From contig CBDAOY010000007.1 of NCBI GenBank assembly GCA_965198225.1, forward strand, positions 384,001 through 448,000: a stretch of DNA of 64,000 nt, given 5' to 3'. How positions within the stretch are numbered: the stretch's first letter is position 1; every line of letters begins with the position of its first letter. Below the pieces are notes generated by a model that was given only the letters and a program-made list of their open reading frames with translations, was not told where the DNA came from and did no database searches. The position numbers and the translations under genes are program-made. The stretch is from Terriglobia bacterium. GTDB lineage: Bacteria > Acidobacteriota > Terriglobia > 20CM-2-55-15. Shown piece after piece: positions 291 to 43,633 of this stretch.

Positions 291-525
291 GGCGGAGCGA
301 AACCGCCTGGCTCACACCAACGCGGAAGCGGCATGTCGCCAAAGCCGGACAACCGACTGCCTGGCTATCGCCGCGGACTTTCCAGCTGCACTCGGGTGTT
401 TCCGACTATGAATGCTGCAAACCTGAGGGCCCCCGGCTGTTCAGCCCCGCAGCCGCAGATCTATTCTCAACTGTGGCGGAACGGGTGCTCGTCAACCGCC
501 GAACCAAATTGAATTCCAGGGAGTC

Positions 526-1632: not shown

Positions 1633-2483
1633 CGGCGCACGCGAAGGAAGTAGACGCCGCGACGCGGTTCGAGTTCGGAGCGAACTGGAACCGCTTCCTG
1701 TCCGTACTGGACGAGGAGCGCATCGAAGAAGCTGAGAACTCATTAAAAGACATGCTGGAGGTCGACTCCCTGGAAGGCAAAGCCTTACTTGATATCGGCT
1801 CCGGCAGCGGACTGTTCAGCCTCGCGGCGCGACGGTTGGGCGCCATTGTGCATTCGTTTGATTACGACCCTCAGTCCGTGGCCTGCACGGCCGAGCTGAA
1901 ACGCCGGTACTTTCCGGATCACAGCAAGTGGTCTGTCGAGGAAGGGTCGGTGCTCGACCGCGACTACCTGGCTTCGCTGGGACAACACGATGTCGTCTAC
2001 TCCTGGGGCGTGCTGCATCACACCGGCGATCTGTGGACTGCGCTGGACAACGTGGTTCCGCTCGTACGGACCGGCGGCAGACTATTCATCGCGATATATA
2101 ACGACCAAGGACCGTTCTCGCGCTTTTACGCCAGATTGAAGAAAACGTACGTGAACGCATCGCGACCGGGCAAAATAGCGATTGCCGGGGCTTATATGAC
2201 CTACCATGTCGTTCGAGGCCTGGTCGCCGATACGCTGGTTCGCCGGAGGAATCCAATCAAACGCTATTCCCGACACAACCGAGCACGCGGAATGTCGGCG
2301 TGGCACGATATCATCGATTGGATTGGTGGCTACCCCTTTGAAGTGGCCAAACCGGAACATATTTTCGATTTCTACCGGGAGCAAGGATTCACCTTGCGCC
2401 GCTTGAAGACTTGCGTGGGAGGGTCCGGCTGCAATGAGTTCGTTTTCGAAAAGACCGTCGAAGCCACATCAAGTCATCGGTAA
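1629..2483 (+). CDS. Class I SAM-dependent methyltransferase
   Basis: LLDIGSGSGLFS motif I, VYSWGVLHHTG; ATG at 1629 overlaps the GT4 stop (ATGA coupling). Confidence 0.88.
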   Translation: MTAHAKEVDAATRFEFGANWNRFLSVLDEERIEEAENSLKDMLEVDSLEGKALLDIGSGSGLFSLAARRLGAIVHSFDYDPQSVACTAELKRRYFPDHSKWSVEEGSVLDRDYLASLGQHDVVYSWGVLHHTGDLWTALDNVVPLVRTGGRLFIAIYNDQGPFSRFYARLKKTYVNASRPGKIAIAGAYMTYHVVRGLVADTLVRRRNPIKRYSRHNRARGMSAWHDIIDWIGGYPFEVAKPEHIFDFYREQGFTLRRLKTCVGGSGCNEFVFEKTVEATSSHR

Positions 2484-2489
2484 GACGCA

Positions 2490-2652
2490 CCGTACAAGGC
2501 ATCGCGGTCCGAAACGTCGACGAGGGCGCCTCCGCTGTCAAACGTGGGCAACTCGGGAAGGTCCCGCCGCGACTGCGCCCGTTTCCCGAGAGACAGCCTC
2601 AAAGCGGATTCGACCAGTTCCGACATCGTCTTGCCGGTCCGGGCCGCTTCTT
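2490..2652 (-). pseudogene. Truncated ribbon-helix-helix antitoxin (VapB/CopG-like)
   Basis: EAARTGKTMSELVESALRL..LPELPTFDSGGALVDVSDRDALY; own start missing, no toxin gene adjacent. Confidence 0.55.
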
Positions 2653-2945
2653 GGATCTCCGCGTAGATTCTCCCGCCCTCGATCAGAGCCGAGGCCGGCA
2701 CCGCGGCTTCGGTGACGAGCACTCCATTCTGCCGGAATGCGAAGATTGCCAGTCCCGCCGGTACGGAGTTTCCGTCTTGCGAGTCCAGACGACCATAACC
2801 GGTGTTTGCGGATTCCGCAGCTCCAGAGGTGATCCGGACAAATCCGCCATGATCCTGGACCGTGACTGGCGTCGTGCTTTGCGACCAGGAGGGAAGGCAA
2901 AGAACCAGCAGGACCAGCATAAGCAAAGCGCACCGCGGCAAGCGC
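2650..2945 (-). pseudogene. N-terminal fragment of a secreted protein fused in frame to the antitoxin remnant
   Basis: Signal peptide (LLMLVLLVLCLPSWSQ) then GLAIFAFRQNGVLVTEAAVPAS, ending abruptly at the antitoxin sequence. Confidence 0.45.
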
Positions 2946-3358
2946 ATTAACGCTGCCCGTCCTACGCGTGGTAACCCACTGTGGCTTTGTGCCTTAGTGA
3001 CGGGCGAGTGCCATATGCTGCGAGCCTCGCGGGCGCTCCTGCGCCGTGCTGTGAGAGATGCGTAAATGACATAGAAGGGGGGAGTGGGGGTCAATGCGGC
3101 GACCACACCGGGCCGCCTCTCGTTTCAAATGCGCAAAATCTGCCGCTTAACTGATATGATGTATAGATTGAGTTATTGTGTAACGACTCGAAGACCCTCC
3201 GACGATCTAACGTGCCATTCCTCGGCTTTCAAACCTGTTTTGAGAACACTGGGATCGTGCCGACATCTCGGTTCAAAATTACAGGACTACCATGCAGAAT
3301 GACCGATTCGAAGACCTCTCACTAAGCAAACCCATCCTTCGTGCCCTCGGAAAAGAAG

Positions 3359-4981
3359 AGTTGTGTGCGTCAAGTTCTGCAAAAAGTATTTCCGAAAAAG
3401 TCAGTTCTTGAGTGTTGATCGCCGTCGGGCCTGTGGGAATGTGGGAAAGCTGAACGTTCTTGGCGAAGCTTTTCCAAGCCTCAGAGGGAATCCGCGTCTT
3501 GTTGCGGATTTCCTCTGAGGCGTCATTTCCATCAGGCCTCTGCCTTTCTTTCTTTTTTGGTTCTCTTTCTTTCGCCCTTTGAAAGTTTTCCACAGAGATT
3601 CCTCGCTCCAGGATGCGCTGTAATCGACGATCGGCTTCCGAGCCGATCCTTGGGTCGGTCCGTTTTGACGCGTTCACGCGGCAGGCGTCTGACGGTGCCA
3701 GTCCTTCTTGTGTTCCTTCAACAGATCCATGTTCAAATAACGGATCGCTTCGATCCAGTTCTCGTGCATCTCGGTGGTCAGTGCCCGAATCAAACGCAGA
3801 CAGCTGGCCGCGTTGGGGAATATCCGCACCACACGCGTTCGCCGCTTGATCTCTTCGTTGAGCCGTTCCAGCATATTGGTGGATTTCATGTGCTTGTGAT
3901 GCTGAAGCGGCAGCGTGTAGAAGCTCAGCGTCTCGTCGATGTTGTCTTCGACCCAGTCGCAGAGTTTGGGATATTTCTGCCCCCACTTGCTCAACCACGC
4001 CGCGAGGTCCTGCCGCGCTTCCTGGAGGTTCCGCCGATCGTAGAGCCAACGCAGTTCCTGGAGGCAATCGTCATCGCCTTTGCGCGGCAGATAATCCAAT
4101 GCGTTTCGGAGAAAGTGCACGTAGCAGCGCTGCCAGATCGCTTCGGTCAGGACTTCCGCGATGGCTTTCTTCAACCCCGGATGATCGTCGGTCACCACGA
4201 ACTCCACCCCGCACAGGCCGCGTTGTTTTAAACTCAGCAGCAGTTGCCGCCAACTGGTCGTGCTTTCCCGTCCCGCCAGCTCCACCGCCAACACACCGCG
4301 CCGGCCGTCCCAGTTGATTCCGATCGCGACCAGCACCGCCCGGCTCCGGATGACCCCGTCTTCGCGCACCTTCTCGTAGCGCGCATCCAAAATTAGGTAC
4401 GGGTATTCTTCCTCCAATCGTCGCGTTGCAAACTTTTTCAGCTCCTTGTCCAGAGTCTGATTAATCCGGCTGATCGTGCTGGCCGAAAACGAATGTCCGC
4501 ATAGTTCTTCGGTGATGGCTTTCACCTTGCGCGTTGACACGCCCTGCACGTACATCTCGGCCAAGCTGGCCACCAAGGCTTTCTCGCTGCGTTGGTAGCG
4601 TTCAAACACCTCCGTACTGAACCGGCCGGCCCGGTCCTGCGGCACGCGCAACTCCAGCTTGCCCACCCGTGTGACCAGGTCCCGTCCGTAATAGCCACTC
4701 CGATATCCGGTGCGACCCCCTGTTCGTTCACTCTTGACCGCGCCCACGACCTGGTCCATCTCCGCCTCGAGAATCTCTTGAACCACCTCCTGTACGACGC
4801 TTTTCAGCAAATCCTTTTCCTCTCCTAACAGTTCTTTCCAATCCACTCCCTTTCGCTTAATCTGAGGTCGGGCCATCGGTTCATCTCCTTCGTTTCAAAG
4901 TTGATTCGTTACCAACTTTTCGGAGATACCCTGGCCCTTTCCTATTTCAGGACCTTTTTGCAGAAACTCTGAAACATAACC
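3359..4981 (-). mobile_element. IS256-family insertion sequence
   Basis: Imperfect terminal IRs sharing TTCTGCAAAAAG; 8-bp target duplication AAAAGAAG at 3351-3358 and 4982-4989. Confidence 0.93.
3674..4876 (-). CDS. IS256-family (Mutator-like) transposase
   Basis: GYRSGYY, RVPQDR, YLILDARYEKVR, WQRCYVHFLRN, STNMLERLNEEIKRRT. Confidence 0.95.
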   Translation of the reverse strand: MARPQIKRKGVDWKELLGEEKDLLKSVVQEVVQEILEAEMDQVVGAVKSERTGGRTGYRSGYYGRDLVTRVGKLELRVPQDRAGRFSTEVFERYQRSEKALVASLAEMYVQGVSTRKVKAITEELCGHSFSASTISRINQTLDKELKKFATRRLEEEYPYLILDARYEKVREDGVIRSRAVLVAIGINWDGRRGVLAVELAGRESTTSWRQLLLSLKQRGLCGVEFVVTDDHPGLKKAIAEVLTEAIWQRCYVHFLRNALDYLPRKGDDDCLQELRWLYDRRNLQEARQDLAAWLSKWGQKYPKLCDWVEDNIDETLSFYTLPLQHHKHMKSTNMLERLNEEIKRRTRVVRIFPNAASCLRLIRALTTEMHENWIEAIRYLNMDLLKEHKKDWHRQTPAA

Positions 4982-6472
4982 AAAAGAAGGATACGTTCGG
5001 CCGACTCCCATCCAGAAGGCCGCGATTCCCGCTCTGCTTGAAGGTCGCGACTTGCTCGCAAGTGCGCAGACCGGCACCGGCAAGACCGCGGCGTTCGCGG
5101 TGCCTATTCTCGAACTGCTGGCCGAAGAGCCGGACTCGACCGGCCTGCGCGCCGTTGTGCTGACACCCACGCGCGAGCTTGCGCTCCAGGTTGATGAAAG
5201 CTTTCGCTCATATGGCCGTTACCTCAAAATGCGGACCGCCGTTGTGCTCGGCGGTGTCGCCTACGGGCCGCAGATCCAGGCCCTGAAAAAGAACCCGGAT
5301 ATCCTCGTCGCGACACCCGGCCGTCTCCTCGACCTGATGGAGCAGGGCTATGTCTCGTTCGAGAAGGTCGAGATGTTCGTGCTCGATGAGGCGGACCGGA
5401 TGCTGGACATGGGTTTCATCTACGACGTGCGCCGCATCACCGACCGATTGCCGAGAGAACGGCAGACGATGTTCTTCTCGGCCACGCTCCCCCCGGAAGT
5501 CGCGTCGCTGGCGGCAGACATGTTGTGGGAGCCGGCTCGGGTGGCGGTCGCGCCTCCGGCCGCCGTGCCCGAGGAGATGATCCAGAGAGCACTCTTCGTG
5601 TCCCGGGGCGACAAGCTCGACCTGCTGACCGCGCTATTGGGATTACAGAAGATCGAGAGAGCCCTGGTTTTTACACGGACCAAGCACCGCGCCGATCGTG
5701 TTGTCAATCATCTCACGAGGAAGGGAATCAAGGCGGACGCCATCCATTCCAACAAGACCCAGAAGGCCCGTCAGCGAGCCCTTGCGGCGTTCGATACCGG
5801 CAAACTGCGGATTCTTGTGGCCACCGACATCGTGGCCCGCGGTATCGATGTTGAAGGCATCACGCACGTCATCAACTACGAGATGCCAAACAATGCGGAG
5901 GGTTACGTTCACCGGATCGGAAGAACGGCCCGGGCCGGGGCCAGAGGCATGGCGTTGTCGTTCTGCGACGTCGAAGAAGTGGCCCTGCTCAAGAACATCG
6001 AAAGCCTGACCGGTTATCCGATCGAGAAGGTTTCCCGCCATCGCTTCCATTCCAATGCGATTGCGACGCTTTACGGCGTTGACGATGAAGCGGCGGGGAA
6101 TGCCCGGAAACTTCCTTTCCGTTCCACACGCGGCCGCAGCTTCGGACCGCGGCGGAGGCGTCTGGGCCGATAGGATTTCGGCACGTATCGGTCCTCGCGG
6201 CGCGACCCCGCAAGCTCTGTTCTCCTCAGCGATTCTGTCTTCCGTGACAATCCCTTCCATTGTTTGAAGTGGCGATCAGTTCGACGGCGTCACGGATAAA
6301 TCTCTGCTATAGGAGGCGGAGTGGAAAGTGACGGGCGATGAGTTTGAAGTGGTTGCGCCTTCGAGCTCGGCTGGAGACCCTTAGAATCAAATCATACGTG
6401 ACGGCGGTTTCGGAAAGCGTCGCCGGCCAGGTCCGACCGAAGACGCCGCGATCGTGTGAGAATAGGGACTCG

Positions 6473-7525
6473 ATGGCTGGCACAGACACACCGACCCCAC
6501 CTGCCGGCGACACCGGCGCGGCTGGCCTGCGCACGGCCTGGGAGCGACGCACGCGCGTGTGGGCTCTTGTCTTTGCGGCGTTGACGCTGGTGGTATCGGC
6601 GCTCGTCGCCCTCGTGTGGACCGGCGCGCCGACAGCGACCACGCTGGTCGCGGCACTGGCCCCGGCGTTCGGGGTGTACGCGTGGCAGACGGGCAAAATC
6701 CGCCGCCGTCGGGCGATCCTGCGGAAACCCTTCCGACCGGAATGGGAAACGGTGCTGCAGCGGGACGTCGTCTTCTTTCGGGTGCTCGGCTCGGCCCAGA
6801 AGCAGCGGTTCCGTCGTGAACTCCAGGTGTTCCTGGGAGAGAAGCCGATCACCGGCATCAAGGTTCGCCTCGACACGACGACGCGTGTCCTGGCTGCCGC
6901 CAGCGCCATCATCCCGATCTTCGGCTTCCCCGACTGGGAGTGGGACCAGATCAGCGAGGTGCTGATCTATCCGACCCGGTTCGACGGCGAGTTCCAGTTC
7001 GGCGACAAGCAGGGTCACAACATCCTCGGGATGGTCGGGTCGGGCGGCCTGAACCGGTTGATGATCCTCTCCAAGCCGGATCTGATCGCCGGCTTCCGCA
7101 ATGCGACCGACAAGCGGAACGTGGGCATCCATGAGTTCGCGCACCTGGTCGACAAGAGCGATGGGGTGATCGACGGCGTACCCGGCGTGGGACTCGACCG
7201 GCAGGCCATCGGGCCCTGGATCGACCTGGTCCGCCGCAAGATGGCCGAAATCGAGGAAGGGACATCCGACATCAACCGCTACGCGCTGACCAACGAGGCC
7301 GAGTTCTTCGCCGTGATGTCGGAGTACTTCTTCGAGCGCCCCGGCGTGTTGCAACGCAAACACCCCCACCTCTACGCGGCGCTCGAAGGTGTCTTCAACC
7401 AGGACCTGCGATCTCGAGCGGCGGCGTTGCGGCGTGAGCTGAAACGCGGCCGGCCGAAGTTCGGCCGGAACTCGCCGTGCCCGTGCGGGAGCGGACTCAA
7501 GTTCAAGAAATGTTGTCTCCAGTAG
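6473..7525 (+). CDS. MtfA/M90-family zinc peptidase with N-terminal TM helices and C-terminal SEC-C motif
   Basis: [51 protein letters not shown]. Confidence 0.88.
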
Positions 7526-7722
7526 CAGGTTGATCAAGGAGACGGTTAAGCGCTCCCGTCACCAGATCGACTTTGTGAATCGGGGAGAGGCGGCGCAGCA
7601 GATCCACCTCTGTTTTGGGGATCACCGTACTCGATCGTGGAAATAGCGGCCATCCACGGCTCGGTGTTGGGCTAAGACTTCGTCTAGAAACCACGTATCT
7701 CCGAGTCGATCTCGTCGTCGCT

Positions 7723-7960
7723 TCAGCCGCCGCGCGTAGTCGGGGCCGAACCTCCCGCACCAGGCCGCACGGTTTCGTAGGACACGATGATGCCCCGCTC
7801 GGCAAGGAGATCCTCGATATCCCGGAAGCTCAGGCCGAATCTGTGATACAACCAGACGGCATGGCTGATGATTTCAGGCGGAAAGCGATGCCTCAGGTAG
7901 CGGGATCGACGAGTGTTCATCCCGGTATTGTGCCGCGTGGAGAGTTAACCTGACAAAGCC
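7723..7960 (-). pseudogene. IS6-family transposase 5' remnant with left IR
   Basis: YLRHRFPPEIISHAVWLYHRFGLSFRDIEDLLAERGIIVSYETVR; IR-like GGCTTTGTCAGGTTAACT starting at 7960. Confidence 0.85.
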
Positions 7961-8068
7961 CGCGTCGCTGAACCATCCCAACATCGGGCACAGCTACGGG
8001 CGCGGCAGCGGCGACACGCACCGAGCCGCCGACGAACCCACTGAACGCGATTGCACGAGGTCCGATCG

Positions 8069-10090
8069 ATGCCGCGATTTCCGCTGAAGACTCCGACACT
8101 GATTCCTGCGCTCTTTCTCTTCGCGCTGGCCGGCCCCGACGAGGGGGGCGTCCAGATCGTCGCACCGGCCGAGGCCGCGGTTGCACAGGAAGAGTTCTAC
8201 CTCGAGGAAGCGACGATCGCGGACATTCAGGGCGCGATCCGCGCCGGCGATCTGACGGCCGAGCAGCTCGTCGAGCTCTATCTCGCACGCATCAAGGCCT
8301 ATAACGGCACCTGCGTCAACCAGCCCGAAGGCATTCTCGGGGCGGTTACGACGATACCGGACGCCGGACAGATCAATGCGCTCGCGACGCTGAACCTCAG
8401 GCCCGCCACGCGCGTGCGCTGGGGATTCGACTCGCGAAAGGCCCGGAGCATGACGGACGCCGACGACGACGATCCGGCCATGCCGGACGCGCTCGAAACG
8501 GCACGCGCGCTCGACGCGCACTTCGCGGCGTCGGGCGAGTTCGTCGGTCCTCTACACGGTGTCGTCATGGCGATCAAGGACCAGTACGACACGTTCGACA
8601 TGCGCACGACGTCGGGCGCCGACGCCTTCTACGCCGACGATCGGCCGCCCGACGATGCGACGTTCGTGCGCCGGCTCCGTGAGGCCGGCGCGATCATGAT
8701 CGCCAAGTCGAATCTCGGGGAGTTCGCCTCGGCCATACCGCGCAGCGCTTTCGGCGGCACGTTCTGCAATCCCTACGATACGGAGCGCAGTCCCGGCGGC
8801 TCGAGCGCGGGATCGGGCTCGGCCGTGGGCGCAAACCTCGTGACCTGTGCCATTGCCGAGGAAACGGGCTCGTCGATCCGGAGCCCGGCCTACTCGAACA
8901 ACAGCGTCGGCATCGCGCCGACGCAGGAGCTCGTGAGCCGCGACGGCATGATCCAGCAGGGCATCAACACGCGCGTCGGCCCGATCTGTCGCACGGTCGA
9001 GGACGCCGCGCGCGTTCTCGACGTCATCGCGGGCTACGATCCGAAGGACGAGCTCACGGCGTTCAGCGTGGGGCGCCTGCCTGCGGACGGCTATGCGAGC
9101 CATGCAGAGCCGGGCCGGCTCGAGGGCCTGCGCATCGGCGTCGTCCGCGAATACATGGACAAGGAGGCCTTCACGAAGGAGGACGAGGAGACGATAGATC
9201 TCGTCAGCGCGGCCGCCGCCGAGCTCGGACGTCTCGGCGCGACGCTCGTCGACCCGGGTCCGGGCGGGGCGCTGTTCGATCAGTGCGTGCGCCGCTGGTA
9301 TCCGCAGCTGCACGACAAGCAGTTCACGGCCGAGTATCCCGACCGCTTTCCGTTCGAGGCCGACGGCACGCCTTACGGGAATCACATCGCGACGCTGATC
9401 GAGCTCGCGGCCGATCCCGATCTCATGCCCGAGGAGATCGATTTTCGCACGCTCGGCAATCCGCCGACGCCGGGGCAGGGCCGCTACTGGCTCGACCGTT
9501 ACCTGAGCGAGCGCGGCGACGCGAACATCCGCTCGACCGGTGACCTGCTCGAGAAGGCCAACTTCTACGACGATCCGAACTTTCCCGACCACCGGGCGCG
9601 GCACGAGCGCGCGCTCGAACAGCACGAGCTCGACATGGTCGCGCGCATGCAGAACCGGTTCGCCGTGCAGACGATGGTCATGGCCTGCATGGCCGAACTC
9701 GAGCTCGACGCGGTCGTCTACCCGACGAGCAACATTCCGCCCGTCAAGCTCGGCTCGCCGCGCGGGCCCGAGCTCAACGGCCGCGCCGGCGACGGCGTCT
9801 GGCGGTTCCTCGGCAGAAACGGCTTTCCCGTGATCACGGTGCCGACCGGGTTCACGACCGTGATGTACGATCGAATCCGTGTGCCGTCGACGTCTGAGTC
9901 TGCCTCGGGCGACGAGGATAGTGAGACCGAGATCGTTGGTCCCGTGCCGGCGCGTCTGCCCGTAGGCATGGACATCGTCGCGCGGCCTTTCGGCGAGCCG
10001 ACGATCCTGAGAATTGCGGCTGCCTACGAGGCCGCGACGCGGCATCGCGAGTCGCCCGCCGATTTCGGGCCGCTGTCGGGCGAGCCCTGA
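8069..10090 (+). CDS. Secreted amidase-signature family protein
   Basis: GPLHGVVMAIKD, SPGGSSAGSG, EETGSSIRSPA; signal peptide. Confidence 0.9.
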   Translation: MPRFPLKTPTLIPALFLFALAGPDEGGVQIVAPAEAAVAQEEFYLEEATIADIQGAIRAGDLTAEQLVELYLARIKAYNGTCVNQPEGILGAVTTIPDAGQINALATLNLRPATRVRWGFDSRKARSMTDADDDDPAMPDALETARALDAHFAASGEFVGPLHGVVMAIKDQYDTFDMRTTSGADAFYADDRPPDDATFVRRLREAGAIMIAKSNLGEFASAIPRSAFGGTFCNPYDTERSPGGSSAGSGSAVGANLVTCAIAEETGSSIRSPAYSNNSVGIAPTQELVSRDGMIQQGINTRVGPICRTVEDAARVLDVIAGYDPKDELTAFSVGRLPADGYASHAEPGRLEGLRIGVVREYMDKEAFTKEDEETIDLVSAAAAELGRLGATLVDPGPGGALFDQCVRRWYPQLHDKQFTAEYPDRFPFEADGTPYGNHIATLIELAADPDLMPEEIDFRTLGNPPTPGQGRYWLDRYLSERGDANIRSTGDLLEKANFYDDPNFPDHRARHERALEQHELDMVARMQNRFAVQTMVMACMAELELDAVVYPTSNIPPVKLGSPRGPELNGRAGDGVWRFLGRNGFPVITVPTGFTTVMYDRIRVPSTSESASGDEDSETEIVGPVPARLPVGMDIVARPFGEPTILRIAAAYEAATRHRESPADFGPLSGEP

Positions 10091-10316
10091 GCCCGACAGC
10101 GGCCCCGGCCGCCCGGACCCGTGCCGCCGCGAGACGAACCCCGACGTCGAACCTCACCGCTTGACCGCGTAGTGTGCAATTAATCAGCCGACGCTAATCC
10201 TTTGGCTGAGAGCGGGTTGTCCAAGCCCTCCTCCGCTGCATGAACTTCCCCGTAGTGTGCCAAAAAACGACCGAAGGCTTTGAATCATCCTAGCAAGAGG
10301 CAGATAGCCTCACGGG

Positions 10317-10503
10317 ATGCCCCATGCGCTGCACCTCCTTGTCTACACGGTCGCCGGCTGGCTAGCGCACCCCATGAAGACCTTCTTAGAGGCGCATTGG
10401 GAAGGTCTCGCAGCCGCCGATCTGTTTACGGTGGAGGTCGTCACGCTGGAAGGGTTGAAGCGGTGCCTCGTGCTCTTCGTGATCGAGTTGAAGACCCGAT
10501 ACA
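10317..10503 (+). pseudogene. Integrase-core (rve) transposase fragment
   Basis: FLEAHWEGLAAADLFTVEVVTLEGLKRCLVLFVIELKTR, cut off by the IS91-like end. Confidence 0.7.
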
Positions 10504-10504
10504 T

Positions 10505-10753
10505 TGGGGATAAGTAAAACAAGAGGGGTTCTGAGGGCAGGGGGTGGCGGGACGCACGGCGGAACTGTCGCCGTTGGGCTGTTGTTTTGGAGTTGCAGGG
10601 TGGCAGAAACGCCCGACACGCAGAATCGCACGGGCCGAAGCGCACGAAACCCGCGTCGGCTTTCGAGCCGTGTTCAGAACCAGTCCGGTGGAGTGGAATG
10701 CATGGAGGCGGCCGGGTGAACTGGTGGCGCACGCGAGGGTAGACCGAGGCAGT
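10505..10753 (-). mobile_element. IS91-like element 3'/ori end, copy 1
   Basis: ~248-bp near-identical direct repeat of 13885-14132; minus-strand terminus CCCCTCTTGTTTTACTTATCCCCA. Confidence 0.75.
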
Positions 10754-10759
10754 GTGAAT

Positions 10760-10882
10760 GTCGCCTGGTCTCTCGGAAGGACAACACCTACCAGTCTTTC
10801 ACCGACCTTCGCGCGTGGATCGGGCAGCATCTTAAGGTCAAAGACGCGATCCTCGACGGTGAGATTGTCTGTCTGGATGAGA
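10760..10882 (+). pseudogene. ATP-dependent DNA ligase (LigC/LigD-like) internal fragment
   Basis: Reads ..WIGQHLKVKDAILDGEIVCLDE, resembling ligase motif III (LDGEIV). Confidence 0.55.
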
Positions 10883-11125
10883 GCGAGTCCCCGCGTCTTC
10901 CCACCCCCTGGCACTCGGGACCCCGCTTGTTTTACTCATCCGCAAATGATCTGCGAGCGGCTAAAATGCCGGCGGGAACGGTGAATGGCCCGAAGATCCG
11001 GCGGATTCCTGTCACTTATCACAAGAACCCATTATATTGATGTGAAGCAATTGCTTGTTGTCACAATTCACGATTTGGTCCGGCACCGGGCACACCAATT
11101 TTCTTGTAACCGAAAGATAAACAAT

Positions 11126-38859: not shown

Positions 38860-39177
38860 AGTCAGGCTGCCCGAGCCTTCTATTACCTCGGCTCCGCGCT
38901 ATACAAGCTCGACCATTTGGAATACGCCGAAACGAGCCTCGAGTGGTCGCTCGGCCATGACGAAGTGATCCCGGACGCGCGACTGATGCTGGTCAACATC
39001 TACATGAAGCAGCGCCGGTACCGCGAAGCCGCCGATCAACTGACAGTCTACCTGGTAGAGTTTCCGGACAGTCCTCAACGGAAGGGTGTCGAAAAGATGC
39101 TGGACGACATCCGCAAGGTCCTGCAGCAGTCGCCCGGACAATCGCAGTCCTGTGTCTTCTGCAGTCGGGAAGAATAA
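38860..39177 (+). pseudogene. C-terminal fragment of a TPR protein
   Basis: YYLGSALYKL..DARLMLVNIYMKQRRYREAADQLTVYLVEFPDSP; no proper start. Confidence 0.5.
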
Positions 39178-39191
39178 TCCGTCGGAAGGGC

Positions 39192-39685
39192 AAAAAAAAT
39201 GGAAAGGGGCCAACTGTCCGCTTGCTCTCGCCACTAGTTGCTCGAGCACGGGACTGATTCTCCGGCGAGCCCTCGATCGCAGGGCTGATCATGATTCGAT
39301 CGTGAGTTGCCCCACTTTCTCTTCGCGGTCCGATCAACTCCCTTCAGGCTTTGCGAGTTGCCCCGCGCCGCCGTCCGGAGGCTGATTCAAGCTCCGTTCG
39401 GTCCACGAGTTGCCCCGCTTCCCTCCCTTTGCTTGACCTTCAAACTCTGACTGAGACGCGAGTTGCCCCGCTCCTCGTCCAGGGTTTGAGTCAGACTCTG
39501 CTCGGTCTGCGAGTTGCCCCGCATTCCGCTCAGGGTCTGATTCAGACTCTTCTCGATTTGCGAGTTGCCCCGCTCCTCGTTCAGGATCTGAGTCGGTCTC
39601 TGGTCGGCCTGCGAGTTGCCCCGCATTCCGTTCAGAAACCGTGCCGGGTCGTCAATCTCTAACGATCAGCTAACCCCTTACCGAG
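39192..39685 (-). ncRNA. Candidate multi-arm structured ncRNA, copy A (7 GNRA-capped arms)
   Basis: GCGGG-GCAA-CTCGC hairpin at 39302, 39353, 39405, 39458, 39509, 39560, 39611 (period 51-53); closing helix 39667-39677 with 39206-39216; U-tract; paralogue at 43078-43373. Confidence 0.78.
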
Positions 39686-39689
39686 CAGT

Positions 39690-39718
39690 AGAATCTACCT
39701 TTCTCGGAATCCTGTCAA
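39690..39718 (-). promoter_or_regulatory. sigma70-like promoter of ncRNA copy A
   Basis: TTGACA at 39713-39718; TAGATT (15-nt spacer) or GATTCT (17-nt spacer); conserved in copy B. Confidence 0.6.
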
Positions 39719-39929
39719 TATAGAAAATTTTGCGCGCCATTGCTCATGTATAGTACTGAATACAAGTAGTTTAACGTGTATGCGAATATCTTGCGTCGAT
39801 CACAGAACGGCGCGGTGGGAAATGTTGCAATTTTCGCTATTTGAGGTGCGCGAAGTGCGCCCTGCGCTCGGTTATGGTCAGACCTCCTCGCCTAACGCCT
39901 CACCTGTCTTTTGGGCTGCCTGTTCGGGG

Positions 39930-40060
39930 TTCCACGAACTATGCAGGCGTCCCAAAGGGTCGCGATGGCGGGACACAAGACCCGGTCCGTTTTGACGGGT
40001 ACAACATCGTCAACGAGGACGACATTCCGGAGGCCGGACAAGCCGTCGCAGCCTCCTTCA
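39930..40060 (+). pseudogene. Tyrosine recombinase (integrase) C-terminal remnant
   Basis: Frameshifted AGVP..VAM..GHKTRSV/FDGYNIVNEDDI (box II His and catalytic Tyr region). Confidence 0.65.
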
Positions 40061-40142
40061 CCGATCCATGGGCACAGTTCCCGCACAGATCGCAGAAATC
40101 CATGAGGAAAGGAAAATAGCCGAGATGCAAAGTATTTGAGAC

Positions 40143-40198
40143 TGGATGCCGAAAGGGGGTTTCGAACCCCAAGTCCCTGGCGGACAATAGATCCTGAA
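40143..40198 (-). pseudogene. Degenerate 3' half of tRNA-Leu(CAG), att-site-like
   Basis: TTCAGGA anticodon loop, long variable arm, GGGG-TTCGAAA-CCCC T-arm, ends CGGCATCCA; 5' half absent. Confidence 0.65.
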
Positions 40199-40355
40199 GG
40201 CGTCCTGTGAAAGGGTTGGTTTGTTGATGAAAGCTTAGTCTTTCAACTCATCCACGGATTCTTAGCCAATGGAAAACGTGAAAAGTTGTGTCAAGTTAAT
40301 TGTGGAGCGGGCAAGAAGCCGGCGGCCCGCGAAGTAACCACCGGCCTCGTTAACC

Positions 40356-42851
40356 TTAGGGTCGGGCCGGGCAGTCATCGGTTGGGAAATACTGCAGGCA
40401 TTCCTGGGCTGTTAAGTCGCGAAATATGCGCGCGCGCGCGCGTTCGAGCAAACTCTCGATTTCGCGTGCCCATATCTTGGCCGTCCCATCCTGGCTCGCG
40501 GTGGCGACTCGCGTCCCGTCCCCGCTGAACGCCACCCCATACACATCGCCGCCGTGGCCGCTCAGGGTCCGCAACTCCTGCCCCGTTGCCGCATCCCATA
40601 TCTTGGCCGTCCCATCGACGCTCGCGGTGGCGACTCGCGTTCCGCCCCCGCTGAACGCCACGCCATACACATCGGTGCCGTGGCCGCTCAGGGTAAGCAA
40701 CTCTTTCCCGGTTGCCGCATCCCATATCTTGGCCGTCCCATCGGCGCTCGCGGTGCTCACCCGCGTCCCGTCCCCGTTGAACGCAACCCCAATCAAAATG
40801 GTGTCGTGGCCGCTCAGGGTAAGCAAGTCCTCCCCGGTTGCTGTATCCCATATCTTGGCAGTCCCATCCTCGCTCGTGGTGGCCACTCGTGTCCCATTCC
40901 CGCTAAACGCCACCGCATACAGATAGGGCTCGTGGCCGCTCAGGGTAAGCAAGTCCTCCCCGGTTGTCGCATCCCATATCTTGGCCGTCCCATCCTGGCT
41001 CGCGGTGGCGACTCGCGTCCCGTCCCCGCTGAACGCCACGCCATACACACCGGCGTCGTGGCCTCTCAGGGTAAGCAACTCTTCCCCGGTTGTCGCATCC
41101 CATATCTTGGCCGTCCCATCCTGGCTCGCGGTGGCGACTCGCGTCCCGTCCCCGCTGAACGCCACGCCATACACACCGGCGTCGTGGCCTCTCAGGGTCC
41201 GCGACTCCTCCCCGGTCGTCGCATCCCATATCTTGGCCGTCCCATCGGCGCCCGCCGTGCCCACCCGCGCCCCGTCCCCGCTGAACGCCACGCCATACAC
41301 ACCGGCGTCGTGGCCGCTCAGGGTCCGCAATTCCTCCCCGGTTGCCGCATCCCAAATCTTGACCGTGCCATCGGCGCTCGTCGTGCCCACCCGCGTCCCG
41401 TCCCCGTTGAACGCCACGCCATACACATCGCCGCCGTGCCCGCTCAGGGTAAGCAACTCCTGCCCGGTTGCCGCATCCCATGTCTTAGCCGTCCCATCGA
41501 CGCTCCCGGTGGTCAGTCGCGTCCCGTCCCCGCTGAACGCCACCCCATACAAAGAGTCTTCGTGGCCGCTCAGGGTCCGCAACTCTTCCCCGGTTGCCGC
41601 ATCCCATATCTTGGCCGTCCGATCGACGCTCGCGGTGGCGACTCGCGTCCCGTCCCCGCTGAACGCCACCCCATACAGATAGTCTTCGTGGCCGCTCAGG
41701 GTAAGCAACTCCTGCCCGGTTGCCGCATCCCAAATCTTGGCCGTCCCATCGACACTCGCGGTGGCGACTCGCGTTCCGCCCCCGCTGAACGCCACGCCAT
41801 ACACATCGGCGTCGTGGCCGCTCAGGGTCCGCAACTCCTGCCCGGTTGCCGCATCCCAAATCTTGGCCGTCCCATCGGCGCTCGCGGTGGCGACTCGCGT
41901 CCCGTCCCCGCTGAACGCCACCCCATACACATCGGCGTCGTGGCCGCTCAGGGTCCGTTCGACAAAAGATGTCGCGACGGCCCGGTAGAGCACGCCTTCT
42001 GCGACCGGAAGTGTATCCCCGCCGAAATTGTGAGTGGCCTGTACCGCATGCACTCCCAAAATGACGCTAAGTTCCGGATCTTGGGACAGGCTGCCTTCCG
42101 CGTAGGCGGCTAGTTCCCGCGCCCGGCCTTCTCGTCCGTTTTCTTCAGCGATGAAGGTCTGTTGAACGGCGTAGGACACGGCAAGAACGGCGAGAACGAG
42201 TGCCGCCATCGCCACTGATAAATAGGCCTTGAGTCGCGAGCGCATCCTCCTCTCTTTTTGCAAATCTTGTTCTAAGTCTTGCCTGGAGGTAACATTCTCG
42301 CTCTCGCGGATTCCACCGATGATGCGCTCGCGAATGTTAGTCCGGATGTCGTCGCGCTCCTGCGAAGACAGGAGTTCCCACTTCCCGGGCTGAACAGGCA
42401 GGCGCTGCGCGTTTGGCCAGCGTGCTTGCACAACGTCGGGTGTCCATCGGGCGCCCTCTCCCGTTGAATCGATAAGAATTGGTGCGACGTGACGGTTGGC
42501 CAACCACCAGTCCAGTTCCTTGTGGACCCAATCGTCCACGCCTCGATTCGGGAAAGCGCCCGGCGAGCACACAAGAAGCATCGCCCGCGCCCGCTGTAGC
42601 GCCGGCTCGTGAACGCGAGTCCAGTCGTCGACAGCGGGAGCCGATTGATCGTAGTAGAGCTCAAGCTCGGGCGGCGCGTCGTATCCATCGGGGATAAAGG
42701 GGAGGGGTTGCCTGTGAAGAGTCTCGTAAAGCCACTCTGCGGCTCCACCTCCGTCGACTTGGCGATAGCAGATGAAGATGTCCCAGGTTGCAGGGGGGCG
42801 TGCGGGTTCACTCCCTTCAGCGCTGGGGTTATTAGTGTGGTCTGCCGACAT
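40356..42851 (-). CDS. TIR - transmembrane - WD40 (12 near-identical repeats) protein
   Basis: WDIFICYRQVD..DWVHKELDWW TIR; TM helix; 12 x 126-bp repeats LSGH..VYGVAFSGDGTRVATAS.DGTAKIWD. Confidence 0.9.
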   Translation of the reverse strand: MSADHTNNPSAEGSEPARPPATWDIFICYRQVDGGGAAEWLYETLHRQPLPFIPDGYDAPPELELYYDQSAPAVDDWTRVHEPALQRARAMLLVCSPGAFPNRGVDDWVHKELDWWLANRHVAPILIDSTGEGARWTPDVVQARWPNAQRLPVQPGKWELLSSQERDDIRTNIRERIIGGIRESENVTSRQDLEQDLQKERRMRSRLKAYLSVAMAALVLAVLAVSYAVQQTFIAEENGREGRARELAAYAEGSLSQDPELSVILGVHAVQATHNFGGDTLPVAEGVLYRAVATSFVERTLSGHDADVYGVAFSGDGTRVATASADGTAKIWDAATGQELRTLSGHDADVYGVAFSGGGTRVATASVDGTAKIWDAATGQELLTLSGHEDYLYGVAFSGDGTRVATASVDRTAKIWDAATGEELRTLSGHEDSLYGVAFSGDGTRLTTGSVDGTAKTWDAATGQELLTLSGHGGDVYGVAFNGDGTRVGTTSADGTVKIWDAATGEELRTLSGHDAGVYGVAFSGDGARVGTAGADGTAKIWDATTGEESRTLRGHDAGVYGVAFSGDGTRVATASQDGTAKIWDATTGEELLTLRGHDAGVYGVAFSGDGTRVATASQDGTAKIWDATTGEDLLTLSGHEPYLYAVAFSGNGTRVATTSEDGTAKIWDTATGEDLLTLSGHDTILIGVAFNGDGTRVSTASADGTAKIWDAATGKELLTLSGHGTDVYGVAFSGGGTRVATASVDGTAKIWDAATGQELRTLSGHGGDVYGVAFSGDGTRVATASQDGTAKIWAREIESLLERARARIFRDLTAQECLQYFPTDDCPARP

Positions 42852-43077
42852 CGATAAGTGTCAGCTTGGGAAACGAACCCCTAACTGTCAATCAATTACT
42901 AGGAGTCAAATCGAGTGTGGTTGCTCTAGAGGGACTTCGAATCTCCACAGGATCGCTCCCGACTAGATCCTTAATCTGGTTGTTCCATCAAGGTGGAAGC
43001 GCGTTCCGTGGCGGCTGGCCAAGGTTGAAGGCGGGTGAGGGAAGAACGGCCAAGCCTGAGTACCGGGAGCTGAGGGC

Positions 43078-43373
43078 AAAAAAAAAGGAGGGGTCAGCCG
43101 TCGCCGCTCTCGCCACTAGTATGCGTGAGCCCGGAATCGACTCTCCGGCCAGGCCCCCGATCGTCAGAGCCTGTGTCAGACCCTCATCGGTTTTGCGAGT
43201 TGCCCCGCATCCCCTCTTCGGGCCTGCTTCAAACTCCGTCCGGCTTGCGAGTCGCCCCATAAGCCGTCCAGGGCTTGAATCGGCTCCTGATCGCTCTGCG
43301 AGTTACCCCGCAAATCCGTTCAGAAGCCATGCCGGGTCATCAATCTGGTTGCGATCAGCTAACCCCAACCGCG
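43078..43373 (-). ncRNA. Candidate multi-arm structured ncRNA, copy B (3 arms)
   Basis: Hairpins at 43195, 43247, 43298 with GCAA/GCGA/GUAA loops; closing helix 43356-43366 with 43090-43100; U9 tract. Confidence 0.78.
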
Positions 43374-43377
43374 CAGT

Positions 43378-43406
43378 AGAATCTACCTTTCTCGGTAGGG
43401 TGTCAA
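43378..43406 (-). promoter_or_regulatory. sigma70-like promoter of ncRNA copy B
   Basis: TTGACA at 43401-43406 followed by CCGAGAAAGGTAGATTCTACTGC, identical to copy A. Confidence 0.6.
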
Positions 43407-43633
43407 TACAGAAAAATTTGCGCTGTTAATATTGATAAAAGTACTGATACTAAATGTGTTAACAGGTGCATGCATTCGCTGCGTCCGGGCTCGTGTCCAC
43501 GACCGTAACAAATTGCAATTTGCCGTTCGAATGCTTCCAAACCGCGTTTTCGGAGGGCCCGAACGCGGGTGTTTCCTGAGATAATGATGGCCAGATGGCG
43601 CAGTTGTTCGGAAACGCTGCGGAGGAGGTCCCT

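What the first reader, a model, noticed from the sequence alone, without database searches (positions are those of the whole stretch)
39190..43410. Two paralogous multi-arm ncRNA genes with variable numbers of GNRA-capped arms: candidate new structured RNA family
Seen (minus strand, both loci): TTGACA promoter; 5' GGGGUUAGCUG pairing with the 3' end (CAGUUGGCCCC in A, CGGCUGACCCC in B, 11 bp kept despite substitutions); second helix GAUUGA..CCGGC / GCCGG..UC(A/G)(G/A)U; a run of ~51-nt arms; a small hairpin with a CGAUCG loop; a conserved ACUAGUGGCGAGAGC module; a U-tract. Copy A (~490 nt) has 7 arms and copy B (~295 nt) has 3. Inference: an independently transcribed scaffold whose valency changes by arm duplication. 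It could be a multivalent protein decoy (CsrB-like logic), a repeat antitoxin (type III TA-like logic) or a GNRA-mediated self-assembling RNA. I do not recognise it as tmRNA, RNase P, SRP, 6S or CRISPR.
Basis: partly seen in the sequence, partly recalled or inferred. Interest (0 to 1): 0.92.

Follow-up and report, generated by a model that had tools for sequence, protein, structure and literature searches.

The report
Multi-arm small RNAs with kissing loops
Two abundantly transcribed non-coding RNA genes in an acidobacterial genome are arm-expanded members (3 and 7 hairpin arms instead of 1) of an undescribed structured small-RNA family whose hairpin loops carry co-varying self-complementary hexamers, the signature of RNAs that stick to copies of themselves.

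Summary
Copy A (window 39192-39677, minus strand) has six good ~51-nt GNRA-capped arms plus a degenerate seventh. Copy B (43078-43366, minus) has three. Both share the promoter, closing helix P1, a CGAUCG-loop hairpin, an ACUAGU-loop hairpin and a U-tract.

Rfam 15 has no match. With two covariance models I found a family of ~177-190-nt, one-arm RNAs in 12 of 34 genomes of one family of class Terriglobia (Acidobacteriota), and in 0 of 130 genomes of other families of that class. On 22 homologues, 32 of 51 base pairs show compensatory change.

Three metatranscriptome runs of one study hold contigs over A and B only (word depth up to ~10,900), with nothing over the flanks and almost nothing over the gene between them. 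Only this genome has multi-arm copies. It also holds a canonical copy and a ~95-nt mini copy.

New here: the loop after the arm is a 6-nt palindrome in 25 of 25 members (CGAUCG, AGAUCU or CGGCCG). The 3' hairpin loop is palindromic in 22 of 25.

Best reading: a new self-associating (kissing-loop) small RNA whose arm number changes by tandem duplication. Its cellular role is unknown. A link to the intervening TIR-WD40 gene is not supported.

The parts
39192..39677 (-). RNA gene copy A, from the first G of P1 to the end of the U-tract (486 nt). The transcription start is probably a few nt upstream of 39677.
   Evidence: Sequence; fold z -6.47; RNA-library contigs cover 39206-39674.
39690..39735 (-). 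Promoter of A: upstream A/T-rich block 39735-39719, -35 TTGACA 39718-39713, 17-nt spacer, -10 GATTCT 39695-39690.
   Evidence: The block and its spacing are shared by 22 of 24 family copies. The consensus scan did not call it.
39667..39677 (-). P1 5' strand of A (GGGGUUAGCUG).
39206..39216 (-). P1 3' strand of A (CAGUUGGCCCC).
39286..39643 (-). Arm array of A. A1 39592-39643, A2 39541-39592, A3 39490-39541, A4 39439-39490, A5 39386-39437, A6 39334-39386, and the degenerate A7 about 39286-39334.
   Evidence: R1 scores: six arms at E 1.5e-16 to 1.2e-10, A7 at E 0.19. Arm identities.
39269..39285 (-). Hairpin L1 of A, with the palindrome CGAUCG (39279-39274) in its loop.
39224..39247 (-). 3' hairpin L2 of A, with the palindrome ACUAGU (39238-39233) in its loop.
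43078..43366 (-). RNA gene copy B, from the first G of P1 to the end of the U-tract (289 nt).
   Evidence: fold z -7.83; RNA-library contigs 43088-43360, 43097-43360 and 43086-43364.
43378..43423 (-). Promoter of B: upstream block, -35 TTGACA 43406-43401, 17-nt spacer, -10 GATTCT 43383-43378.
43176..43330 (-). Arm array of B. B1 43279-43330, B2 43228-43279, B3 43176-43228.
   Evidence: R1 E-values 2.3e-12, 2.9e-12 and 1e-8.
43152..43171 (-). Hairpin L1 of B, with the palindrome CGAUCG (43163-43158) in its loop.
43106..43130 (-). 3' hairpin L2 of B, with the palindrome ACUAGU (43120-43115) in its loop.
43090..43100 (-). P1 3' strand of B (CGGCUGACCCC).
40356..42851 (-). 831-aa ORF between B and A: a weak N-terminal TIR_2 match followed by about 12 WD40 repeats. 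This is context only. I do not count it as part of the RNA system.
   Evidence: Pfam. No ortholog was found in 3 same-genus genomes with this query: G001 gave only a partial 34% WD40 match, G002 and G003 gave none. RNA contigs are almost absent over it.

Best explanation
A and B are two independently transcribed, highly abundant, trans-acting structured small RNAs. They belong to an undescribed family restricted, as far as I searched, to one family of the class Terriglobia (Acidobacteriota).

ARCHITECTURE OF A CANONICAL MEMBER (177-190 nt). A closing helix P1 is followed directly by a U-tract. Inside it lies a junction carrying one long arm that usually ends in a GNRA tetraloop. Next comes a hairpin L1 whose ~9-nt loop displays a self-complementary hexamer. 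A 3' hairpin L2 has a loop that usually displays a second self-complementary hexamer.

MECHANISM I THINK MOST LIKELY. Copies of the RNA bind each other through symmetric loop-loop (kissing) pairing at L1 and probably at L2. This gives dimers or longer assemblies. The arm apex (GNRA, or a third palindrome in three members) makes further RNA-RNA contacts.

WHAT HAPPENED IN THIS GENOME. The arm was multiplied by tandem duplication inside the junction, to 3 in B and 7 in A. This raises the number of docking modules per molecule. A and B share both loop codes (CGAUCG and ACUAGU), so they could co-assemble. The third paralogue shares only the first code.

SHOWN HERE: the gene anatomy, the family, the secondary structure, the arm duplication, the presence of both RNAs in RNA libraries without their flanks, and the palindrome covariation.

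INFERRED: the self-association, the role of the arms, and any cellular function (scaffold, sponge or storage particle).
For: REAL GENES.
- The promoter block is conserved in 22 of 24 copies.
- P1 plus a U-tract is present in A and B.

STRUCTURE.
- On 22 homologues, 92.8% of 1088 cells are paired and 32 of 51 pairs show changes on both sides. 0 of 500 shuffles reach this, and slid controls give 32-47% paired.
- For the arms, 81.5% of cells are paired and 6 of 18 pairs are compensatory.

DISTRIBUTION.
- 12 of 34 genomes of the family have a match, in 4 of 11 genera, with 1-3 copies each.
- 0 of 130 genomes of 12 other families of the class have one.
- All 22 full-length hits are 177-190 nt, which is one arm.
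- No other tandem arm hits were found in the 34 genomes.

EXPRESSION.
- Runs X10, X12 and X13 (RNA libraries, one study) have contigs only at 39206-39674 and 43086-43364.
- Word depth per bin over 39222-39704 is 383-10,896; the 3'-most bin (39061-39221) has depth only in X10 (183). Over B it is 48-252.
- There is no cover elsewhere, except depth 1.6 at 42510-42693 in X10.
- DNA run X1 covers every bin at 10-35.

KISSING LOOPS.
- L1 holds a palindromic hexamer in 25 of 25 members: CGAUCG 10, AGAUCU 13, CGGCCG 2.
- On the alignment, 66 of 66 cells are self-complementary, and two of the three mirror pairs covary (A-U 13 / C-G 9; A-U 21 / G-C 1).
- L2 is palindromic in 22 of 25: CCAUGG 19, CCGCGG 1, ACUAGU 2.
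- Adjacent mirror positions cannot pair within one loop. The same argument was used, and then borne out by cryo-EM, for OLE L9.3 and GOLLD L21a (PMC12286853, passages read).
- Three members replace the GNRA apex by a CCUAGG loop. This points to RNA-RNA contact at the apex rather than sequence-specific protein contact.
- B's three arms carry three different GNRA loops.
Against: - No experiment or 3D model shows oligomers. Kissing complexes cannot be predicted with the tools at hand.
- 3 of 25 L2 loops are not palindromic (CCACGG, CCAGGG, CCAUUGG).
- By my own reading of the alignment printed, not counted by a script, the base after the L2 hexamer often makes a GGA triplet. Conservation of CCAUGG could therefore have another cause.
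- The L1 variants follow phylogeny, so they represent few independent events: two covarying positions.
- The alignment used for the counts was fitted to the model, which leans towards the structure.
- The ~95-nt mini paralogue has an arm but no kissing hairpins. The arm may therefore be the functional unit, which would fit a protein-binding role equally well.
- The apical stem sequence is unusually conserved among the window's arms (GCGGGGCAACUCGC in 6 of the 10 arms counted). That would also fit a protein site.
- The expression evidence is contigs from one study. It gives no strand, no ends and no true level. Some of those contigs run on into unrelated sequence (table 7).
Confidence: 0.5

Rival explanations
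1. Multivalent protein sponge or scaffold. Each arm (conserved apical stem-loop plus purine-rich 2x2 internal loops) binds one copy of an RNA-binding protein. A canonical RNA titrates one copy, B three and A six or seven. The palindromic loops are secondary, or they bind a dimeric protein.
For: - The apical 14 nt are nearly invariant among the window's arms, while the basal stems drift with compensation.
- The mini paralogue keeps just P1 plus one arm under the same promoter.
- A is very abundant in RNA libraries.
- The genome encodes two CsrA homologues.
Against: - GGA is not enriched: 14 against 13.7 expected in A, 7 against 7.4 in B, and 1-6 against about 3-5 in 22 homologues.
- Across the family the apex varies in sequence: GCAA, GUAA, GCGA, a non-GNRA loop in four members, and a CCUAGG loop in three.
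- No protein gene is a conserved neighbour.
- This reading does not explain why mirror positions of the L1 loop covary.
Confidence: 0.3
2. RNA partner (antitoxin or regulator, type III toxin-antitoxin-like) of the TIR-WD40 gene that A and B flank.
For: - B lies 240 nt upstream and A about 640 nt downstream of the 831-aa TIR_2/WD40 ORF, on the same strand.
- The gene sits in a variable region with no orthologue found in three same-genus genomes.
Against: - None of the 18 homologue loci examined has a TIR or WD40 neighbour. Neighbours differ between loci: MacB/FtsX permeases, creatininase, a symporter, thiolase, a CBS protein.
- The repeats are arms of one closed fold. They are not head-to-tail units released by a nuclease.
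- PADLOC gives no defence-system assignment.
- The TIR match is weak (30.3 bits against a cut-off of 28).
- No ToxN-family hit was found in the genome, but that search rang in no control genome either, so it carries no weight.
Confidence: 0.04
3. Cis-acting leader (riboswitch or attenuator) of the downstream gene.
For: B ends with a U-tract 240 nt upstream of an ORF on the same strand.
Against: - A is followed by a convergent gene.
- Homologues have unrelated downstream genes in either orientation.
- RNA contigs stop at the U-tract and there is no cover beyond it.
Confidence: 0.03
4. Not an RNA at all: a DNA repeat, a MITE or a repetitive peptide gene.
For: - ORFs of 79 aa (39387-39626) and 90 aa (42988-43260) lie on the minus strand inside A and B.
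- The 51-nt period is a multiple of 3.
Against: - By my own reading of the sequence, the two ORFs read the arm apex in different frames. They have no Pfam match.
- Compensatory and G.U changes are strand-specific.
- There are only 3-4 copies per genome, each with its own conserved promoter.
- The genome's real MITE has 138 termini.
Confidence: 0.01

Closest known systems
OLE, ROOL, GOLLD and ARRPOF: bacterial non-coding RNAs that form RNA-only homo-oligomers
   Same: - Strongly structured RNAs of unknown function, transcribed as separate genes.
- Symmetric kissing loops whose palindromic cores covary. GNRA/A-minor contacts serve as the second kind of glue (PMC12286853, passages read; table in PMC12990946, passages read).
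   Different: - No sequence or model match: Rfam 15 gave no hit at gathering score or at E up to 10.
- Much smaller: 177-190 nt canonical, against 255-833 nt in the table read.
- Found in Acidobacteriota.
- Several paralogues per genome.
- A module whose copy number varies (1, 3, 7). I did not see this described for those RNAs in the passages I read.
- Oligomerisation is not shown here.
Retroviral dimerisation-initiation hairpin (HIV-1 DIS)
   Same: By my own recall (no call), the DIS is a 9-nt hairpin loop with a 6-nt palindrome, two flanking bases 5' and one 3'. L1 of the same-genus members has exactly this layout: A-A-CGAUCG-A.
   Different: It sits in a cellular bacterial RNA. There is a second, different palindromic loop in the same molecule. 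No packaging context exists.
CsrB/RsmZ-type protein sponges
   Same: An abundant small RNA built of repeated hairpins, with repeat number varying between paralogues. The genome has CsrA homologues.
   Different: GGA is not enriched. The loops are GNRA or palindromes. The arms are long (about 51 nt) and radiate from one closed junction.
Type III antitoxin RNAs (ToxI and relatives)
   Same: Tandem repeats in a non-coding transcript next to a possible effector gene.
   Different: From recall, ToxI-type repeats are about 34-40 nt and are cut into single units by the adjacent nuclease toxin. Here no such toxin is adjacent, homologues have a single arm and unrelated neighbours, and the repeats are parts of one fold.
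Unnamed ~0.8-kb multi-arm RNAs of other Terriglobia and soil metagenomes
   Same: - Tandem ~49-50-nt arms capped by GNRA on a G/C apical stem, with an own promoter and terminator.
- Same bacterial class.
- Not in Rfam.
   Different: - Different 5' and 3' domains.
- No match to core model R2, apart from short apex matches.
- No match to arm model R1, apart from 1 weak hit in 80 loci.
- The arms have an asymmetric internal loop.
- 10 or more arms as the norm.

Membership tests
Any Rfam 15 family | A covariance-model score at or above the family's gathering score. | tested here: not met
   - 0 matches in the whole window.
- At E up to 10 over 39100-43500, only a 13.9-bit snoRNA chance hit on the other strand.
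- In 7 homologue loci at E up to 1, only two miRNA chance hits.
6S RNA | A match to RF00013, and being the genome's 6S gene. | tested here: not met
   No hit in the window. The genome's 6S lies elsewhere, at C6:230181-230371 (64.4 bits, above the cut-off).
Bacterial small SRP RNA | A match to RF00169. | tested here: not met
   No hit in the window. The SRP RNA is at C8:355310-355407 (78.9 bits).
CsrB/RsmZ-like sponge | Many GGA motifs, enriched and exposed in loops. | tested here: not met
   GGA counts are 14 against 13.7 (A) and 7 against 7.4 (B) in shuffles. About half are unpaired in the MFE fold.
CsrB/RsmZ-like sponge | A CsrA protein is present. | tested here: met
   Two CsrA matches above the cut-off in the genome.
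Type III toxin-antitoxin (ToxIN-like) | An adjacent endoribonuclease toxin gene downstream of the repeat array. | tested here: not met
   The downstream ORF is TIR_2/WD40. The genome-wide ToxN search found nothing, but its controls rang nowhere, so it is uninformative.
Type III toxin-antitoxin (ToxIN-like) | Repeats are processed into unit-length RNAs. | not testable with these tools
   Only contigs were available, not raw reads.
Self-associating (kissing-loop) non-coding RNAs, as a functional kind and not a homology family | A hairpin loop with a self-complementary core whose mirror positions covary. | tested here: met
   L1 is palindromic in 25 of 25 members, with two covarying mirror pairs. 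L2 is palindromic in 22 of 25.
Self-associating (kissing-loop) non-coding RNAs, as a functional kind and not a homology family | A dimer or oligomer is observed. | not testable with these tools
   This needs native gels, mass photometry or cryo-EM.
MITE / dispersed DNA repeat | Many dispersed copies with terminal inverted repeats and target duplications. | tested here: not met
   - Only the two window copies by BLASTN.
- R2 adds the C6 copy and the promoter scan adds a mini copy: 4 related genes in all.
- Each copy has its own promoter.
- An unrelated real MITE has 138 termini.

The most novel reading that the evidence does not exclude
This is a natural, modular RNA building block. Two orthogonal symmetric kissing loops (L1 and L2) let protomers polymerise into chains, rings or networks without protein. 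The number of GNRA-capped arms per protomer (1, 3 or 7, plus an arm-only mini form without kissing hairpins) sets branching and valency. The cell would then tune an RNA-only supramolecular assembly or condensate through paralogue choice and arm copy number. The private ACUAGU code of A and B would keep their assembly partly separate from that of the third paralogue.
Probability: 0.2. Interest if true: 0.92.

Novelty: new variant of a known kind. Interest (0 to 1): 0.74.

Why it matters
Natural RNAs that assemble with themselves were, until the 2025 cryo-EM work, almost unknown outside viruses. The known bacterial examples are large (255-833 nt in the table read).

This family would be a small and tractable case. 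It offers two distinct palindromic loop codes, several paralogues per genome, and a natural series of valencies: a mini form, then 1, 3 and 7 arms. That makes two questions directly testable with short transcripts: how RNA quaternary structure evolves, and what such assemblies are for.

The family also adds a strongly supported, abundantly expressed non-coding RNA to Acidobacteriota. My five literature searches found no paper describing it. The runs that show expression are labelled as sponge metagenomes.

The larger ~0.8-kb multi-arm RNAs seen in passing suggest that arrays of GNRA-capped arms recur as a design in this class.

Tried and rejected
KNOWN RNA FAMILIES. Rfam gave nothing, at gathering score or by E-value. 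6S and SRP were rejected because both genes lie elsewhere in the genome.

BLASTN FOR HOMOLOGUES.
- Copy B found nothing in 39 relatives. Homologues appeared only with the covariance models.
- The 'order' search repeated the same 34 genomes as the 'family' search and added nothing.
- BLASTN of the mini paralogue found nothing in 33 relatives. BLASTN also missed A and B, so this says little.

ARM-MODEL HITS IN G019, G015, G041 AND G023. On reading these were unrelated palindromic repeat elements or coding sequence. I dropped them. L022 and L034 were kept as true homologues.

GENOME_CONTIGS PATTERN SCAN. It gave 19 stretches. 7 had an R2 match and 12 (other phyla) had none. I treated those 12 as chance matches, of which I expected about 8.

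METAGENOME SCAN. None is a member of this family. I therefore cannot say whether other multi-arm members exist in metagenomes.

VIRAL CONTIGS. The core pattern gave 0 hits. The three-apex pattern gave 10 hits, which are coding or other repeats.

CONSERVED NEIGHBOUR GENES. No gene cluster is shared across the loci apart from local synteny within a genus. The MacB/FtsX permeases next to the b and c copies belong to a large paralogous group and I give them no weight.

PROMOTER/TERMINATOR SCAN. It called neither the promoters nor any terminator.

PARTS WITHOUT RNA COVER. These are contig data of one study. I use them only together with the DNA run that covers the same places.

MINOR VARIANTS IN THE RUNS.
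- A low-depth DNA joint 40170 to 43079 (depth 2.6, side 25 nt).
- A 45-nt skip at 39286-39332 in one RNA contig.
Both are too weak to claim a cassette-free variant or an arm-number variant.

- I did not use the look-up of encoding contigs, which was stated to be closed.
- I did not ask for supplementary files. The supplementary tables of PMC12286853 list intermolecular motifs that I could not compare.
- I ran no protein structure or complex prediction, because none would bear on the question.

LITERATURE. Five searches found no paper on this family or on the larger arrays. A sixth search found only the cryo-EM and review papers used here as precedent. The library lacks most subscription journals.

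Full report
1. WHAT IS THERE

Read on the minus strand, the region holds two paralogous units. Copy B (43078-43366) lies upstream of an 831-aa ORF (40356-42851). Copy A (39192-39677) lies about 640 nt downstream of it.

The two copies align from about 130 nt upstream of a TTGACA box through the 5' core and the first arms, and again at the 3' end. Each unit has these parts:
- a -35 TTGACA, a 17-nt spacer and GATTCT;
- an 11-bp helix P1 between the 5' GGGGUUAGCUG and the 3' end. The three 3'-strand differences between A and B are all G.U/Watson-Crick switches;
- inner helices that close a junction;
- a run of arms;
- a hairpin with CGAUCG in its loop;
- a hairpin with ACUAGU in its loop;
- a U-tract directly after P1.

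Arm apices recur every 51-53 nt, seven times in A and three times in B. Minimum-free-energy folds give exactly this multi-arm picture, with z-scores of -6.47 and -7.83.

The reverse strand folds much worse. About 12-16% of the pairs are G.U, which fixes the strand.

A model of the arm (R1) scores nine arms at E of 1e-8 or better. The seventh arm of A scores only E 0.19. That arm keeps the apical hairpin but has lost the basal stem.

The generic promoter/terminator scan called none of these signals.

2. THE ARMS ARE HAIRPINS KEPT BY SELECTION

In the nine-arm alignment, 81.5% of cells pair and six of 18 pairs show double changes. Slid controls give 27-46% paired.

The apical stem with its G.U pair and a GNRA loop (GCAA 8, GUAA 1, GCGA 1) is nearly invariant. 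The basal stem drifts with compensation.

Arm identities show that A1 matches B1 (81%) and that A2/A3/A4 form a young cluster (77-83%). B2 is closest to A6 (75%). A few-armed ancestor that expanded internally in A fits these numbers. This history is my inference.

3. IT IS NOT A KNOWN RNA

Rfam 15 gives no match at gathering score in the window. Nothing credible appears at E up to 10. The genome has its 6S and SRP RNAs elsewhere.

4. HOMOLOGUES

BLASTN found only the two copies in the genome and nothing in 39 relatives.

The arm model then found single arms in all three same-genus genomes and in another genus. Reading those loci showed a ~185-nt RNA with the same promoter block, P1, one arm, the CGAUCG-type hairpin, a 3' hairpin and a U-tract.

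A full-length model (R2, built from nine sequences) gave these results:
- It finds the RNA in 12 of 34 genomes of the taxonomic family, in 4 of 11 genera, with 1-3 copies per genome.
- It finds none in 130 genomes of 12 other families of the class.
- All 22 full-length hits are 177-190 nt long, so each has one arm.
- The own genome has a third, canonical copy on contig C6 (102 bits).

Records with titles show that the clade belongs to Terriglobia (Acidobacteriota). One same-genus record is labelled Solibacteraceae.

On the 22-sequence alignment, 92.8% of 1088 cells pair and 32 of 51 pairs have double changes. 0 of 500 shuffles reach this, and slid controls give 32-47%. The alignment is fitted to the model, which favours the structure. 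The margin is nevertheless large.

5. EXPRESSION

The search for sequencing runs listed DNA runs of three studies that hold 81-90% of the stretch's sampled words. It also listed four RNA libraries of one study (labelled sponge metagenome) that hold 14-18%. That share is about what A plus B make of the 4.3 kb.

I laid three of the four RNA runs on the stretch:
- They have contigs only over 39206-39674 and 43086-43364.
- Word depth per bin over 39222-39704 is 383-10,896. The 3'-most bin (39061-39221) has depth only in X10 (183). Over B it is 48-252.
- They have nothing over the flanks, the spacer or the ORF, except depth 1.6 at 42510-42693 in one run.
- The DNA run covers every bin at 10-35.
- The three B contigs (43088-43360, 43097-43360, 43086-43364) match the predicted RNA almost end to end.

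Contigs cannot give strand, exact ends or true levels. Some of them continue into unrelated sequence, and all three runs come from one study. Even so, DNA contamination cannot explain cover that is thousands deep and confined to the two genes.

One DNA contig spans all of A (38900-39683), so the seven-arm form is not an artefact of the window's assembly.

6. THE NEW OBSERVATION: PALINDROMIC LOOPS

In every one of 25 members (22 homologues, one truncated hit, A and B) the loop of the hairpin after the arm contains a self-complementary hexamer. It is CGAUCG in 10, AGAUCU in 13 and CGGCCG in 2.

On the alignment the three mirror pairs are complementary in 66 of 66 cells. Two of the pairs covary: A-U 13 / C-G 9, and A-U 21 / G-C 1. 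In the same-genus members the loop has nine bases: two, then the hexamer, then one.

The loop of the 3' hairpin holds CCAUGG in 19 members and CCGCGG in the C6 copy. In A and B it holds ACUAGU. Three members are not palindromic there.

Three members replace the GNRA apex of the arm by a loop with CCUAGG.

Mirror positions of one small loop cannot pair with each other within a chain. Their covariation therefore points to pairing between two copies of the loop. This argument was made for OLE L9.3 and GOLLD L21a and matched the cryo-EM structures (PMC12286853, passages read). A review lists kissing loops and palindromic pairing as the commonest contacts in natural RNA oligomers (PMC12990946, passages read).

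Caveats:
- The variants follow phylogeny, so independent events are few.
- The second palindrome could be conserved for another reason. By my own reading of the alignment, a GGA triplet often follows it.
- No oligomer has been seen.

7. CONTEXT AND THE TIR-WD40 GENE

The ORF between B and A has a weak TIR_2 match (30.3 bits) and about 12 WD40 repeats with a 126-nt period. PADLOC assigns it to no defence system.

Of the genes around it:
- The glutamate dehydrogenase beyond B has 82%-identical orthologues in same-genus genomes.
- The transporter beyond A has no close orthologue there (best match 29-30%).
- With the TIR-WD40 protein as query, G001 gave only a partial 34% match and G002 and G003 gave none.
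A and B therefore sit in a variable region.

Homologue loci have varied neighbours and no TIR or WD40 gene. The locus that carries the 'a' copy in same-genus genomes has no RNA in this genome. A small inverted-repeat element sits there instead.

I conclude that the adjacency is an accident of duplication and insertion, not a functional pair.

8. FURTHER PARALOGUES AND THE PROMOTER

The block upstream of -35 is conserved in 22 of 24 copies. Scanning the genome for it, with up to 3 mismatches, gives five sites. One is the C6 copy.

Another, 55 kb outside the window, drives a ~95-nt rod made of P1 and one GNRA-capped arm of the window's type. It has no kissing hairpins (fold z -6.94).

This genome therefore holds forms with an arm only, with 1 arm, with 3 arms and with 7 arms.

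9. EXPLANATION AND RIVALS

The reading I think most likely (0.5) is a self-associating small RNA whose arm number was raised by tandem duplication. The arms serve as extra RNA-RNA docking modules.

The main rival (0.3) is a protein sponge or scaffold with one site per arm.
- In its favour: the conserved apex sequence and the mini form fit it.
- Against it: GGA is not enriched, the apex varies across the family, no partner gene is conserved, and it does not explain the loop covariation.
- The two readings do not exclude each other.

Antitoxin-like, leader, DNA-repeat and coding readings are each unlikely, for the reasons given under the rivals.

10. NOVELTY

The family is absent from Rfam 15. 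Five literature searches found nothing on it.

As a kind, structured bacterial RNAs with symmetric kissing loops are known. The small size, the two loop codes, the several paralogues and the natural valency series are new features. I rate it a new variant of a known kind, with interest 0.74. The evidence that it is real and expressed is strong. The function is open, and the taxonomic range is narrow.

Noticed in passing
L117:485-1270 (+); L223 about 1065-1860 (+) = G031:C7; L066 whole contig; 45 of the 80 metagenome loci L065-L144: - A different, larger (~0.8 kb or more) non-coding RNA built of 10 or more tandem ~49-50-nt GNRA-capped arms. It has its own conserved 5' domain, promoter and terminator.
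- It was found because the three-apex pattern hit at least 120 metagenome stretches, where far fewer than one was expected.
- It is present in 2 of 4 genomes of one genus of another Terriglobia family.
- It is not in Rfam and does not match R1 or R2.
- It looks undescribed and deserves its own study.
   Followed up: partly
G000 C6:895859-896048 (+) = L044:1501-1690: A third, canonical one-arm member of the family in the same genome (R2 102 bits). Its loops hold CGAUCG and CCGCGG, and its arm apex is not GNRA.
   Followed up: partly
G000 C7:503171-503265 (-) = L244:272-366, 55 kb outside the window: A ~95-nt mini paralogue under the same promoter block: P1 plus one GNRA-capped arm of the window's type, without the two kissing hairpins. 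A flagellin-like ORF lies downstream (my own reading of the sequence; no search). Fold z is -6.94. BLASTN found no hit in 33 relatives.
   Followed up: partly
window about 47755; G000 C8:838800-839000; loose end at window 43609 in DNA run X1: A MITE-like element family. Its 23-nt terminal inverted repeats usually lie about 240 bp apart, and there are 138 termini in the genome. One pair fills the locus where same-genus genomes carry the 'a' RNA copy. A DNA contig of run X1 diverges from the window at 43609 into a similar terminus (table 7).
   Followed up: partly
window 40469-41954: The WD40 part of the 831-aa ORF is a 126-nt tandem repeat of 11.8 copies with 87% matches. The blades are therefore unusually alike at the DNA level. 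DNA-run contigs break up here (table 8).
   Followed up: no
window 40170 / 43079: One low-depth DNA contig (depth 2.6, 25 nt on the shorter side) joins 40170 to 43079. That would remove the TIR-WD40 gene together with the spacers on both sides of it, from just after B's U-tract (table 5). It is too weak to claim a variant.
   Followed up: no
window 39282-39332: Variants inside the degenerate seventh arm of A (tables 4 and 5). 7-nt insertions at 39282-39289 appear in RNA and DNA contigs, with different letters in different runs. One RNA contig skips 39286-39332 (45 nt).
   Followed up: no
L014, L016, L017 (downstream of the 'a' copies in same-genus genomes): A conserved small ORF, about 60 aa by my own reading of the sequence. 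It begins MDPKIEGLEL and ends in a Gly/His-rich tail. It lies about 150 nt downstream of the RNA on the same strand. Its function is unknown.
   Followed up: no
G000 C7:523521 (+) and C9:946874 (+): Two further sites resemble the family's promoter block with up to 3 mismatches, but no recognisable family RNA lies downstream.
   Followed up: no
window 39387-39626 (-) and 42988-43260 (-): Open frames of 79 and 90 aa run through the arm arrays, because three of the arm periods in A are 51 nt (17 codons). By my own reading, they use different frames relative to the arm apex. They have no Pfam match. I treat them as by-products.
   Followed up: yes
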